Virus record (IMG/VR): IMGVR_UViG_2541047790_000003
DNA: 10,589 bases
Direction: 5' to 3' (one strand)
From: a virus
Taxonomy: Duplodnaviria > Heunggongvirae > Uroviricota > Caudoviricetes
The first letter of the stretch is position 1; the number at the start of each line of letters is the position of its first letter. Of this stretch, positions 1 to 3,155 are shown piece by piece. The notes beneath the pieces were generated by a model that was not told where the DNA came from, did no database searches, and was given only the letters and a program-made list of their open reading frames with translations. The translations under genes were made by a program, and so were the position numbers.

Positions 1-189
1 TGGATGTTCGCGGGTTCCGACAGCGGTGGTGAACATGCGGCGGTGTTGTACTCGCTGATCGGCACATGCCGTCTGAACAATGTGGAGCCAGAAAAGTGGC
101 TGCGTTACGTCATTGAACATATCCAGGACTGGCCGGCAAACCGGGTACGCGATCTGTTGCCCTGGAAAGTTGATCTGAGCTCTCAGTAA
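1..189 (+). CDS. IS66-family transposase, C-terminal fragment (5' end lies outside the window)
   Basis: Frame is open from base 1 to TAA at 187-189. Translation ...FAGSDSGGEHAAVLYSLIGTCRLNNVEPEKWLRYVIEHIQDWPANRVRDLLPW resembles the conserved C-terminal region of IS66-family transposases (from memory). Confidence 0.7.
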   Translation, partial: WMFAGSDSGGEHAAVLYSLIGTCRLNNVEPEKWLRYVIEHIQDWPANRVRDLLPWKVDLSSQ

Positions 190-219
190 ATATCAATACG
201 GTTCTGACGAGTCGCTTAC
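1..219 (+). mobile_element. Right end of an IS66-family insertion sequence (partial; boundary approximate)
   Basis: About 30 bp after the transposase stop the sequence reads ...GAGTCGCTTAC (ending at 219); its reverse complement GTAAGCG... is the usual start of IS66-family terminal inverted repeats. Lambda-like sequence follows immediately. Confidence 0.5.
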
Positions 220-423
220 CTTTTCCAGAAATGCGTTTGGAATGAACGTATATCCATCCTCTTTTGGTAGAGACGGGAGCAACGCCCTCGCCTCAGCCTT
301 CAGAAGCTCAGTTCTGGCAACTTTCACAAAAGAGATTTGAGTTCTTTCATCAATGGAACGAAGGAAGCGCAAACGCTTAGCTTCTTTGTGTGTATCAGGT
401 GGATTAAAGCCTTTGTTTCGCAT
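193..423 (-). pseudogene. Truncated phage gene in the replication-module position downstream of cII, fused to IS-derived codons
   Basis: ATG at 423-421 with GAGGT 8 nt upstream, 22 nt after the cII stop. 76 codons (MRNKGFNPPDTHKEAKRLRFLRSIDERTQISF...); the last ~8 codons lie inside the putative IS terminus before TGA at 195-193. Not recognisable as lambda O. Confidence 0.4.
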
Positions 424-499
424 ATAATTACCTCGTTGGATGTTGTTAAAATTCCATTTGTATTTGATCAGAACGCTCGGTTGCCGCCGGGCGTTTTTT
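423..499 (+). ncRNA. oop: oop-like antisense RNA (3' end defined by terminator; 5' end approximate)
   Basis: Intrinsic terminator on the plus strand inside the cII 3' end (stem 474-493 with G-U wobbles, T-run 494-499), as for lambda OOP RNA, which is antisense to the cII 3' end. A perfect TATAAT sits at 423-428 upstream. Length and start are not determinable from sequence alone. Confidence 0.4.
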
Positions 500-1155: not shown

Positions 1156-1872
<717 letters not shown>

Positions 1873-1901
1873 CCACAATACAACCTTGTTGTCGCAAAAA
1901 G

Positions 1902-1949
1902 ATCGCATATGCGATTGTTTATTAGAAATAGAAATCGCCATATAGGCGA
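1902..1949. repeat. Two related palindromes in the cI-to-cargo-gene intergenic region
   Basis: Perfect 14-bp palindrome ATCGCATATGCGAT (1902-1915) and TCGCC-ATATA-GGCGA (1935-1949); both have a TCGC...GCGA core with an AT-rich centre, about 33 bp apart centre to centre. Confidence 0.5.
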
Positions 1950-1990
1950 ATAGTCGATCTCAGTGCATAACATAAGGAAATCAATAACAT

Positions 1991-2896
1991 ATGCCAAATT
2001 TACCGATGGGCGGATCGCAGGGTGAATTACCCTTAGTACCTACAGTAGAAGTTGTTGCTGATGGCATTCCTATGGGGGTGCTTAATGATGGAACCCCTTA
2101 TCTAACTCTTTACGGTTTAGCCAAATTATGTGGCATAGATGAAGCACCTCTTCGAATGTTTACATCTAACTGGGAGACTGAAAAAAATAAGCCAAGAGGA
2201 CAAAAAGTAGCTGCATACTTAGCTGAGAAAGGATTTAACAACGTTGACCGACTGTATACCCGCGTCATAAATAGCTCAAACGTTGAAACACATGCTTATC
2301 CTGACTATGTTTGTATGGCTATCCTCCGTTACTACGCTCTAGATGCCACCAATTTTGATAGGTCAGTCGCAATAGGTAATTTTGTTCGCTTGGCTGAGTA
2401 CACGCTTAAGCGAATGATTTATGAAAAGTCAAATTACAACCCAAATGCTTCAATAGATATCTCATTCGAGAACTATAGAGCAAGGATTAAGCTAAACGAT
2501 CAGATACCGACAACTCATTTTGCAGTATTCAGAGAGATAGCTGACATTGCCATGAACCTGATCGGAGGAGGATTCCCAATGGATGACACCACATCTTTGG
2601 ATGGAAGTGTTGGAATTCACTGGGGAAAGTATTGGACAGCTAATGGGCTATCTGAGAAATTCGGGGAAAGGGTGCAGTACCCACATCTATTCCCCGAAAA
2701 TTACAGGCAGTCAGCTGCAAATAAGCATATAAAAGCTTGGATTTATCCTATTGAGGCACTTGGCGTGTTCAGAAAATGGCTACACGATAATTACGCAATG
2801 GAAAAACTGCCAAATTACCTTGGGAACAAAAAGATTAGTAATGCCTCCGAGCTATTAGAGTTGATAAAAAAACCAGCACTCCCAAATAAGCATTGA
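1991..2896 (+). CDS. Hypothetical 301-aa protein in the rexAB slot; candidate exclusion/defence gene with a possible KilA-N/Bro-N-like N-terminal domain
   Basis: ATG at 1991 with AAGGA 12 nt upstream; 301 codons ending TGA at 2894-2896; protein-like composition; coding sequence is AT-richer by eye than cI and N. No similarity to RexA noticed. The N-terminal segment ...VPTVEVVADGIPMGVLNDGTPYLTLYGLAKLCGIDE... is reminiscent of KilA-N/Bro-N domains; this is unverified. Confidence 0.8.
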   Translation: MPNLPMGGSQGELPLVPTVEVVADGIPMGVLNDGTPYLTLYGLAKLCGIDEAPLRMFTSNWETEKNKPRGQKVAAYLAEKGFNNVDRLYTRVINSSNVETHAYPDYVCMAILRYYALDATNFDRSVAIGNFVRLAEYTLKRMIYEKSNYNPNASIDISFENYRARIKLNDQIPTTHFAVFREIADIAMNLIGGGFPMDDTTSLDGSVGIHWGKYWTANGLSEKFGERVQYPHLFPENYRQSAANKHIKAWIYPIEALGVFRKWLHDNYAMEKLPNYLGNKKISNASELLELIKKPALPNKH

Positions 2897-2907
2897 TCTC
2901 CACCACA

Positions 2908-2934
2908 ACCCGGCATCTGCGCCGGGTTTTCTTT
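2908..2934 (+). terminator. Rho-independent terminator downstream of the 301-aa gene (tImm equivalent)
   Basis: Stem ACCCGGC (2908-2914) pairs with GCCGGGT (2921-2927) around loop ATCTGC, followed by a T-rich run TTTTCTTT. Confidence 0.75.
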
Positions 2935-3084
2935 GCCTAACGCCCCCAAAAAACACATAACCAATTGTATTTATTTTAAAATTAATAGATACAACTCGCT
3001 AAACATCGCAATTCATATCTCTCGATCACCTTCCCAATCCACACAACCCTGCAAAAAATAAATCTATATAAAAAACATACAGAT

Positions 3085-3155
3085 AACCATCTGCGGTGAT
3101 AAATTATCTCTGGCGGTGTTGACATGAATACCACTGGCGGTGATACTAAGCACAT
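3085..3155 (+). promoter_or_regulatory. Left operator OL3-OL2-OL1 with promoter pL
   Basis: OL3 AACCATCTGCGGTGATA (3085-3101), OL2 TATCTCTGGCGGTGTTG (3105-3121), OL1 TACCACTGGCGGTGATA (3129-3145); -35 TTGACA (3119-3124) and -10 GATACT (3142-3147). Matches lambda pL/OL with a few substitutions. Confidence 0.9.

What the first reader, a model, noticed from the sequence alone, without database searches (positions are those of the whole stretch)
1895..1955. Pair of related palindromes upstream of the 301-aa gene
A perfect 14-bp palindrome ATCGCATATGCGAT (1902-1915) and TCGCC-ATATA-GGCGA (1935-1949) share a TCGC...GCGA core with an AT-rich centre. They lie in the only intergenic gap between cI and the cargo gene. 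Two spaced dyad sites look like operators for a dimeric DNA-binding protein (possibly the cargo protein itself if its N-terminus binds DNA), or like attenuator hairpins controlling read-through from pRM. BstA-type loci are reported to carry a cis-acting self-immunity DNA element; I cannot tell whether these repeats are analogous.
Basis: seen in the sequence. Interest (0 to 1): 0.45.

Follow-up and report, generated by a model that had tools for sequence, protein, structure and literature searches.

The report
Two small palindromes upstream of bstA
Two short palindromes do sit between a lambda-type repressor gene and a BstA anti-phage gene, but they occur only in one young version of this gene cassette and lie just outside the conserved repeat pair that matches BstA's known self-immunity DNA element, so they are at most an accessory feature.

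Summary
ATCGCATATGCGAT (1902-1915) is the only perfect 14-bp palindrome in the window, and TCGCC-ATATA-GGCGA (1935-1949) follows it in the 118-bp cI-cargo gap. The cargo is BstA (PADLOC E 2.9e-106), a prophage abortive-infection protein with a DNA self-immunity element, aba.

The palindromes are not the aba equivalent. In 38 of 52 non-redundant BstA loci, a 9-mer direct repeat spaced 56-57 bp brackets the start codon, as in BTP1 aba. Here the pair is CGATCTCAG (1955) and GGATCGCAG (2012).

Homology to other BstA leaders starts at about 1953. The dyad-bearing 80 bp occurs only in one almost clonal leader type: 33 E. coli genomes and a few viral or metagenome contigs, with no variation in the dyads. 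It is absent from all other BstA loci, including the tested BstA-Ec type.

Function is unresolved. My ranking:
- Accessory copies of the aba core (about 0.35). GATCGCA occurs only at 1901 and 2013, and GATC[G/T]C sits at 1901, 1956 and 2013.
- Weak hairpins in the cI-bstA mRNA (about 0.3).
- Functionless duplicated filler (about 0.25).

A dimeric-operator pair or an efficient terminator is unlikely. The locus is an ordinary new member of a known system.

The parts
1159..1872 (+). cI repressor gene (lambda immunity type; HTH_3 + Peptidase_S24)
   Evidence: Pfam hits. The 3' end is 95-98% identical to cI of HK97, mEp234 and Stx phages, and that homology stops exactly at the stop codon.
1873..1954 (+). 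Variable leader segment of the bstA cassette; it carries the two dyads and has no counterpart in other BstA loci
   Evidence: 100% identical in class B E. coli prophages. Only 33% alignable identity to the class C / CL707 / BstA-Ec type. Unrelated to the leaders of the nearest relatives L119, L025, L062, L121 and L068.
1875..1892 (+). Weak predicted hairpin (ACAAUA...UGUUGU)
   Evidence: RNA fold of the leader. No other evidence.
1902..1915 (.). Palindrome 1, ATCGCATATGCGAT (perfect 14 bp). Its left half GATCGCA (1901-1907) is the same 7-mer as in the downstream aba-like repeat
   Evidence: GATCGCA occurs only at 1901 and 2013 in the whole window, counting both strands.
1917..1934 (+). A/U-rich spacer GTTTATTAGAAATAGAAA between the two dyads
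   Evidence: Direct reading. The possible RNase E-type single-stranded segment is inference only.
1935..1949 (.). Dyad 2, TCGCC-ATATA-GGCGA (5-bp arms, 5-nt centre)
   Evidence: Relative to palindrome 1, the innermost arm pair changes from A-T to C-G (alignment).
1955..2022 (.). Predicted aba-equivalent (self-immunity DNA element), spanning the RBS and start codon
   Evidence: Same position and spacing as the 63-bp BTP1 aba, which runs from -29 to +34. The family-wide peak at 56-57 bp spacing supports it. Homology with other GSQG-type BstA leaders begins at about 1953.
1955..1965 (+). Upstream aba-like repeat, CGATCTCAGTG
   Evidence: Matches the downstream copy at 8 of 10 positions at 57 bp. 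All polymorphisms in this leader type fall here or 7 bp further on: 1960, 1962, 1964 and 1972.
1974..1980 (+). Ribosome-binding site AAGGAAA
   Evidence: Conserved as AAGGAAATCA in most BstA loci.
1991..2896 (+). bstA (301 aa). It is mosaic: the N-terminal domain is shared with class B and the C-terminal half with class C / BstA-Ec
   Evidence: PADLOC BstA E 2.9e-106. Segment identities and the breakpoint at 2314-2321.
2012..2022 (+). Downstream aba-like repeat GGATCGCAGGG (codons Gly8-Ser9-Gln10-Gly11)
   Evidence: CGGATCGCAGGGT (2011-2023) is invariant, synonymous sites included, in seven loci whose proteins are 55-100% identical. It encodes part of a tail predicted to be disordered (residues 1-12).
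2907..2928 (+). Timm-type intrinsic terminator that closes the cI-bstA unit
   Evidence: -15 kcal/mol. The equivalent site is annotated Timm in phage CL707.

Best explanation
The window holds the immunity region of a lambda-immunity prophage in which rexAB is replaced by a bstA cassette. By analogy with BTP1, the cassette is transcribed from the cI promoter.

The cassette's self-immunity (aba) equivalent is the roughly 68-bp stretch 1955-2022. It consists of two imperfect direct repeats, CGATCTCAG and GGATCGCAG, 57 bp apart and bracketing the RBS and ATG. I rate this placement at about 0.85.

The two palindromes sit 6 and 40 bp upstream of that element. They lie in an 80-bp leader segment that exists only in this near-clonal cassette type.

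The mechanism I commit to is inferred, not shown. The palindromes are extra copies of the aba core motif (G/A)ATCGC(A/C): two inverted copies in palindrome 1 and two degenerate ones in dyad 2. They would give the DNA-binding N-terminal domain of this BstA allele additional sites next to the core aba. That would strengthen cis or multicopy titration of BstA when the prophage replicates, and possibly allow autoregulation. They would be an accessory, not a required, part of self-immunity.
For: Placement of aba:
- The BTP1 aba was mapped to -29..+34 with terminal CCCGCC repeats 56 bp apart.
- In 52 non-redundant BstA loci, a direct 9-mer pair matching at 7 or more of 9 positions occurs at spacing 56-57 in 38 loci. 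Any other spacing from 30 to 94 gives 0-4 loci.
- The repeat sequence differs between families (CCCGCC, TGGTCACCA, GAACAGC, GCAGCACCC, GATCCCTAC, GATCGCAG). The two copies within a locus match each other better than copies from different loci (7.23 against 6.52, permutation p < 5e-5).
- The conserved block shared with GSQG-type relatives starts at about 1953. It includes 13 invariant bases, CGGATCGCAGGGT, with invariant synonymous sites.

Link of the palindromes to aba:
- GATCGCA occurs only twice in 10.6 kb, at 1901 (palindrome 1) and 2013 (downstream repeat).
- GATC[G/T]C sits at 1901, 1956 and 2013, i.e. 55 and 57 bp apart. In class B prophages all three are exact GATCGC.
- Dyad 2's right arm plus the upstream repeat (ATAGGCG..GATCTCAG) resembles the sequence around the downstream repeat (ATGGGCG-GATCGCAG).
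- In at least 10 other BstA families the upstream repeat is embedded in a short inverted repeat.
- aba acts as DNA.
- The N-domain resembles DNA-binding folds.
- The dyads travel with bstA, not with cI, when the cassette sits behind a different repressor.
Against: - The BTP1 minimal aba needs nothing upstream of -29.
- BstA-Ec, whose locus is the class C type (primer NW_761 matches that leader), gives cognate self-immunity with an 89-bp upstream region that lacks these dyads.
- Relatives with the identical downstream repeat (L119, L025, L062, L068) have no such dyads.
- A third repeat copy about 56 bp upstream is not a general feature of BstA loci.
- The motif-sharing statistics are post hoc, at roughly P 0.005-0.03.
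- There is no sequence variation in the dyads, so conservation and covariation are uninformative.
- No binding data exist for any BstA.
Confidence: 0.35

Rival explanations
1. RNA-level role. The dyads form two small hairpins in the cI-bstA polycistronic mRNA, separated by an A/U-rich single-stranded stretch. They would tune the cI:BstA ratio through weak attenuation after hairpin 1, RNase E-type processing in the spacer, or 3'-end protection of the cI segment.
For: - In BTP1, cI and bstA are one operon with reads across the gap.
- Each dyad folds better than shuffles (z -2.8 and -3.5).
- Hairpin 1 is followed by UGUUUAUU and was flagged terminator-like.
- About 20 other BstA leaders carry a conserved hairpin module with compensatory stem changes, so leader structure is selected elsewhere in the family.
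- The A-T to C-G difference between the two dyads keeps pairing.
Against: - The stems are only 5-6 bp (-6.9 and -7.6 kcal/mol, against -15 for Timm).
- Dyad 2 has no U tract on the + strand.
- The whole 5' region folds no better than shuffles (z -1.5).
- A perfectly palindromic centre is not needed for an RNA hairpin.
- No Rfam family matches.
- No variation is available to test covariation.
Confidence: 0.3
2. No function. The dyad segment is filler in the variable leader of a recently spread cassette. A palindrome was tandemly duplicated and has slightly diverged, and it is kept only because the lineage is young.
For: - The leader type is nearly clonal: 33 of 5426 E. coli genomes and a few viral or metagenome contigs, with 100% identity over the dyads.
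- This segment is the least conserved part of BstA loci, in both length and sequence.
- 53% of shuffled windows contain a perfect 14-bp palindrome.
- The two dyads align as a diverged duplicate.
Against: - The pair with a shared core is seen in at most 4% of shuffles.
- The exact 7-mer is shared with the aba repeat at near-canonical spacing.
- The segment stayed identical while four substitutions accumulated 6-23 bp away. With so few events, this is weak evidence.
Confidence: 0.25
3. Operators for a dimeric regulator (CI, BstA as a classical repressor, or a host factor) that control a dedicated bstA promoter in the gap.
For: Palindrome 1 has perfect dyad symmetry with an AT-rich centre. TTGTTT (1916-1921) and TATAGG (1941-1946) lie between and within the dyads (direct reading).
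Against: - No promoter-like site is called on the + strand of the gap. The only eyeballed pair has a 19-bp spacer and lacks the final T.
- Half-site spacing differs between the two dyads (4 bp against 7 bp).
- By direct reading, there is no resemblance to the lambda-type OR/OL operators at about 1080-1150 and 3080-3147 of the same window.
- BTP1 bstA has no start site of its own.
Confidence: 0.05
4. Minus-strand elements. The dyads act as tandem intrinsic terminators, or as the body of a short antisense RNA starting near 1960.
For: - On the - strand both hairpins are followed by T-rich tails (TTTCTATTTC and CTTTTTGCGA).
- The - strand RNA of 1873-1965 folds at -25.2 kcal/mol, z -3.5.
- A 9/12 promoter-like site lies on the - strand at 1997-1969.
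Against: - No known lambdoid transcript crosses this region on that strand.
- Promoter-like matches in the scanned region are at the chance level (6 found against 6.1 expected).
- Nothing comparable is reported for BTP1.
- The structure cannot be tested for covariation.
Confidence: 0.05

Closest known systems
BstA-aba abortive-infection / self-immunity locus of Salmonella prophage BTP1 (Owen et al. 2021, PMC8585504)
   Same: - The protein is a homologue (43.5% identity by tblastn; PADLOC BstA hit).
- The gene sits directly downstream of cI on the same strand and ends at an intrinsic terminator.
- A direct-repeat pair 56-57 bp apart brackets the start codon, where aba was mapped.
   Different: - The repeat sequence is GATC[T/G]CAG rather than CCCGCC, and the two copies are imperfect (8 of 10).
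- BTP1 has no palindromes in its 88-bp cI-bstA gap.
- The window's leader carries two dyads that re-use the repeat core.
BstA-Ec locus of E. coli NCTC10963, with phage CL707 and the class C prophages
   Same: - The C-terminal half of the gene is 99% identical.
- The position between lambda-type cI and Timm is the same.
- The locus was shown experimentally to carry a cognate aba somewhere within the gene plus 89 bp upstream.
   Different: - The leader is 33% identical, the aba region 57% and the N-domain 78%.
- Its repeats are GATCCCTACA and AATCCCTGCA.
- The window's dyads are absent. Class C has only an unrelated 10-bp palindrome, CATCTAGATG, which is lost in L020.
Conserved hairpin leader module of many other bstA cassettes (HP1 CGGCAtttGCCG, HP2 with a variable stem, and HP3, which presents the upstream repeat); not in Rfam
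   Same: It occupies the same place between the repressor stop and aba, and it contains small hairpins or dyads. HP3 shows that an inverted repeat next to or over the upstream aba repeat is common.
   Different: - There is no sequence similarity to the window's leader.
- HP2 and HP3 have compensatory changes across loci, whereas the window's dyads have no variation to test.
- The window's upstream repeat is not itself inside a hairpin.
rexAB of phage lambda (accessory defence genes between cI and Timm, transcribed from pRM)
   Same: The slot in the immunity region is the same, co-transcription with the repressor is the same (inferred), and the terminator is the same.
   Different: The proteins are unrelated. 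From my own knowledge of lambda, there is no self-immunity DNA element and no dyads in the cI-rexA junction.

Membership tests
BstA-aba prophage defence locus | Protein homologous to BstA | tested here: met
   PADLOC BstA HMM E 2.9e-106, covering residues 8-283. Homologues carry precomputed PF26567 BstA_C. RefSeq names identical copies 'BstA C-terminal domain-containing protein'.
BstA-aba prophage defence locus | Gene immediately downstream of the prophage repressor on the same strand, closed by an intrinsic terminator | tested here: met
   cI 1159-1872, bstA 1991-2896, terminator 2907-2928. CL707 and BTP1 have the same layout.
BstA-aba prophage defence locus | N-terminal KilA-N-like DNA-binding domain | tested here: inconclusive
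BstA-aba prophage defence locus | aba: a short DNA element spanning the start codon, with terminal direct repeats about 56 bp apart | tested here: met
   CGATCTCAG at 1955 and GGATCGCAG at 2012, 57 bp apart. The spacing peak covers 38 of 52 loci. The two copies co-vary.
BstA-aba prophage defence locus | The two palindromes of the finding belong to the aba element | tested here: not met
   They end 6 and 40 bp upstream of the repeat-defined element, whereas the BTP1 minimal aba starts at the upstream repeat. They are absent from all other BstA loci, including the functional BstA-Ec type.
BstA-aba prophage defence locus | aba DNA suppresses the cognate BstA during prophage replication | not testable with these tools
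   This needs the phage or plasmid assays of Owen et al..
Intrinsic terminator / attenuator | Stable G+C-rich stem followed by a U tract on the transcribed strand | tested here: inconclusive
   Dyad 1 on the + strand has a 6-bp stem with 3 G-C pairs, -6.9 kcal/mol and the tail GUUUAUUA; the scan flagged it. Dyad 2 on the + strand has no U tract. The bona fide Timm is -15 kcal/mol. In BTP1 reads run through the gap.
Paired operators of a dimeric repressor | Equal half-site spacing in both sites, and overlap with a promoter | tested here: not met
   TCGC and GCGA are separated by 4 bp in one dyad and 7 bp in the other. There is no promoter-like site on the + strand in 1873-1990.
Known RNA families (Rfam 15) | Match at gathering score | tested here: not met
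   No match in the window or in three related loci.

The most novel reading that the evidence does not exclude
The BstA self-immunity element of this cassette is not a two-repeat 63-bp unit. It is a roughly 120-bp array of three phased GATC[G/T]C sites (1901, 1956, 2013; spacings 55 and 57 bp), with the outermost site duplicated in inverted orientation as a perfect palindrome. BstA would recognise dyad or hairpin-presented copies of its core motif. This would fit the hairpin that presents the upstream repeat in many other families, and it hints that aba may be read in an extruded or single-stranded form on replicating DNA.
Probability: 0.15. Interest if true: 0.55.

Novelty: new member of a known kind. 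Interest (0 to 1): 0.3.

Why it matters
The palindromes themselves matter little unless they prove to bind BstA.

What is useful is the context they led to. The aba self-immunity element was mapped experimentally only in BTP1. It can now be predicted in essentially any bstA locus as a co-varying direct repeat, 56-57 bp apart, across the start codon. In this cassette the only polymorphisms in 466 bp fall in the upstream repeat.

That gives concrete fragments for testing how BstA recognises its own prophage: 1955-2022, with or without 1895-1954. It also shows that the leader, aba and N-terminal domain are exchanged as one unit, separately from the C-terminal domain. This is what one expects if the N-domain reads aba.

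Tried and rejected
- Conservation test of the dyads. All copies found are identical over the dyads, so neither conservation nor covariation can be scored. Sources were 33 E. coli genomes, viral contigs L012-L016 and L024, and two metagenome contigs.
- Search for the 14-mer palindrome in viral contigs. It returned more than 120 unrelated chance hits and was uninformative.
- Third repeat copy about 56 bp upstream as a family-wide rule. It is not seen; hits at 7 or more of 9 positions are at background level.
- General excess of RNA structure in BstA leaders. Mean z is only -0.5 (+ strand) and +0.4 (- strand), and my automatic detection of the upstream stop codon was unreliable.
- RNAalifold on a MAFFT alignment of the conserved leader module. 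It recovered only the outer 4 pairs because of loop indels. Per-sequence folding shows the hairpin, but strand assignment by wobble pairs is not decisive (-7.6 against -7.3 kcal/mol).
- Rfam: no hit.
- PDB sequence search with a BstA profile: no solved relative.
- Pfam on the split domains: nothing.
- CI-operator reading: rejected by eye, with no similarity to the OR/OL sites of the window.
- Dam/GATC idea. GATC sits at 1901, 1956 and 2013, but the aba repeats of BTP1 and many other families contain no GATC, so it cannot be the general principle.

Full report
**What is in the window.**
The window is the immunity region of a lambdoid prophage, read in the opposite orientation to the usual lambda map.
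- It contains an IS66-family transposase 3' end (1-186), cII (449-739, - strand), cro (861-1058, - strand) and cI (1159-1872, + strand).
- By direct reading, lambda-type OR operators lie at about 1080-1150, and OL/PL at about 3080-3147 is followed by N.
- Between cI and an intrinsic terminator at 2907-2928 lies one 301-aa gene (1991-2896). This is the slot that holds rexAB in lambda.
- The gene matches the PADLOC BstA model at E 2.9e-106.
- BstA is the prophage abortive-infection protein of Owen et al. 2021. Its own prophage escapes it through aba, a 63-bp DNA element that spans -29 to +34 of the BTP1 bstA start and ends in two CCCGCC direct repeats.

**The observation.**
- ATCGCATATGCGAT (1902-1915) is the only perfect 14-bp palindrome in the window. 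However, 53% of dinucleotide-preserving shuffles contain one.
- A palindrome plus a neighbouring dyad that re-uses the TCGC/GCGA core is seen in at most about 4% of shuffles.
- The two dyads align as a slightly diverged duplicate, with p of about 0.045.
- As RNA they would be weak hairpins (-6.9 and -7.6 kcal/mol), against -15 for the terminator after bstA.

**Where the aba equivalent is.**
I collected 118 related loci from phage records, E. coli genomes, GTDB genomes and IMG/VR contigs, and reduced them to 52 non-redundant 5' regions.
- For every spacing from 30 to 94 bp, I scored the best 9-mer match between the upstream region and the start of the coding sequence. At 56-57 bp, 38 of 52 loci have a match at 7 or more of 9 positions. 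No other spacing exceeds 4 loci.
- The repeat differs between families: CCCGCC in BTP1, TGGTCAYCA in Klebsiella phages, TTGGTCACC in an Erythrobacter, GCAGCACCC, GAACAGC, GATCCCTAC and GATCGCAG.
- An upstream copy matches its own downstream copy better than those of other loci (7.23 against 6.52, permutation p < 5e-5).
- The BTP1 architecture is therefore family-wide. In the window it corresponds to CGATCTCAG (1955-1963) and GGATCGCAG (2012-2020), 57 bp apart.
- In seven GSQG-type loci whose proteins are only 55-100% identical, CGGATCGCAGGGT (2011-2023) is invariant, synonymous positions included. It encodes part of an N-terminal tail (residues 1-12) that AlphaFold2 predicts to be disordered. 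This indicates constraint at the DNA level.

**The palindromes are outside that element and are not conserved.**
- Alignment with the nearest relatives that share the same downstream repeat (L119, L025, L062, L068, Yersinia L121) shows that homology begins at about 1953. Everything upstream is unrelated.
- The 80-bp dyad segment occurs only in one leader type. That type comprises 23 'class A' and 10 'class B' E. coli genomes out of 5426, six IMG/VR contigs and two gut metagenome contigs. It is 100% identical over the dyads in all of them.
- Conservation is therefore uninformative within the type, and absent outside it.
- The experimentally studied BstA-Ec of E. coli NCTC10963 has the class C leader: primer NW_761 (GTCCGCAGCAAGAGACTTTATACG) matches that leader. 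The P22 derivative that acquired cognate immunity carried only 89 bp upstream. That leader lacks these dyads.
- Self-immunity in a close relative therefore does not need them.

**Mosaic structure.**
- The window is 100% identical to class B from 1855 to 2320, except at 1960, 1962, 1964 and 1972. It then drops to 76%.
- Against class C it is 33% identical in the leader, 57% in the aba region, 78% in the rest of the N-domain and 99% from 2316 onwards.
- The leader, aba and N-terminal domain thus travel as one unit, separately from the C-terminal domain.
- In class B the unit sits behind a different repressor gene and brings a 30-bp remnant of the lambda-type cI 3' end with it. The dyads belong to the bstA cassette, not to cI.
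- All four substitutions that separate classes A and B lie in or just after the upstream aba repeat. The only polymorphism within class A (T1964C) lies there too.

**What the palindromes might do.**
Three readings survive.

(i) Accessory copies of the aba core.
- GATCGCA occurs only at 1901 and 2013 in the whole window.
- GATC[G/T]C sits at 1901, 1956 and 2013, i.e. 55 and 57 bp apart, and is exact GATCGC at all three sites in class B.
- Palindrome 1 is two inverted copies of this core, and dyad 2 is a degenerate version.
- Dyad 2's right arm plus the upstream repeat resembles the sequence around the downstream repeat.
- In many other families the upstream repeat lies in a short inverted repeat.
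- Against this reading: nothing upstream of -29 is needed in BTP1, a third copy is not general, and the statistics are post hoc.

(ii) Small hairpins in the cI-bstA mRNA.
- BTP1 transcribes cI and bstA as one unit, with reads through the gap.
- About 20 other leaders carry a conserved hairpin module with compensatory changes.
- Against this reading: the window's stems are weak, only dyad 1 has a poor U-rich tail, and the whole 5' region is not unusually structured (z -1.5).

(iii) No function, in a young, nearly clonal leader.

I rank these at 0.35, 0.30 and 0.25. Two further readings get about 0.05 each:
- A classical operator pair is unlikely, because the half-site spacing is unequal (4 bp against 7 bp) and no + strand promoter is called.
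- A minus-strand terminator or antisense RNA has only pattern-level support.

**Comparison and verdict.**

Noticed in passing
window 1955-2022; loci L001-L118: A direct 9-10-mer repeat spaced 56-57 bp across the bstA start codon is present in 38 of 52 non-redundant BstA loci, from alpha- to gammaproteobacteria. Its sequence is family-specific and the two copies co-vary. This generalises the BTP1 aba architecture, which the 2021 paper describes only for BTP1.
   Followed up: yes
window 1960, 1962, 1964, 1972 (against L002/L003): The only four differences between class A and class B over 466 bp (1855-2320) cluster in a 13-bp patch, in and just after the upstream aba-like repeat (GATCTCAGTG against GATCGCGGCG). 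The sole polymorphism within class A (T1964C) lies there too. This could be a gene-conversion patch or selection on aba specificity.
   Followed up: partly
window 2314-2321: There is a recombination breakpoint inside bstA. The leader, aba and N-terminal domain are identical to class B (O111-type prophages). The C-terminal half is 99% identical to class C / CL707 / BstA-Ec and only 76% identical to class B.
   Followed up: yes
L026, L027, L034, L068, L070, L072, L073, L066, L069, L076, L081, L082, L091, L099, L103, L105, L106, L037, L121 (about -125 to -30 from the bstA ATG): A conserved non-coding leader module lies between the repressor stop and aba. It has HP1 (CGGCAtttGCCG), ACACAGCGCG, and HP2, whose stem varies with compensatory changes (e.g. 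AGTCGA/TCGACT against AGTTGA/TCAACT) around a GCnnAGA(C/T) loop. It also has HP3, whose loop or 3' arm carries the upstream aba repeat. There is no Rfam match. The strand, and whether it acts as RNA or DNA, is unresolved.
   Followed up: partly
window 1991-2026 (codons 1-12) and 2011-2023: The first 12 residues of BstA are predicted to be disordered, and they differ completely between leader types (MPNLPMGGSQGE against MSINSNSESLHQ). Yet 13 nt (CGGATCGCAGGGT), including synonymous sites, are invariant across distant GSQG-type loci. The downstream repeat always encodes a small x-G-x-Q-like motif just before L-x-L-[FY]-P.
   Followed up: partly
L015 (IMGVR_UViG_2713896897_000006), codon 9 of bstA: This class A copy has TCG changed to TAG inside the downstream repeat (GGATAGCAGGG). 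A single base change both truncates BstA at codon 9 and alters the aba core.
   Followed up: no
window 1-186 and 196-429: An IS66-family transposase C-terminus (Pfam E 2e-17) abuts the region just beyond cII. The 78-aa ORF at 196-429 (- strand), where a replication gene would be expected, has no Pfam hit. The prophage may be replication-defective, which would relax selection on self-immunity.
   Followed up: partly
L002 about 1483-1513, and the leaders of L026, L073, L099, L103, L030, L093 and others: Many bstA cassettes carry a remnant of a repressor 3' end (CAGTGGCCNGAAGAGACGTTTGGGTAA) directly upstream, even behind unrelated repressors. The conserved cI C-terminal coding sequence therefore seems to be the left recombination joint of the cassette.
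   Followed up: partly
window 1873-1965 (- strand) and 1997-1969 (- strand): The minus-strand RNA of the leader folds unusually well (-25.2 kcal/mol, z -3.5). Both dyads have T-rich tails on that strand. A 9/12 promoter-like site points into them. No transcript is known there.
   Followed up: no
L029, about -108 to -95 from the bstA ATG: An unrelated BstA leader (80% protein identity, GSLH type) has GATCGC-TGA-GCGAC just after the upstream gene's stop. This is the same TCGC/GCGA dyad core as in the window. It may be coincidence.
   Followed up: no
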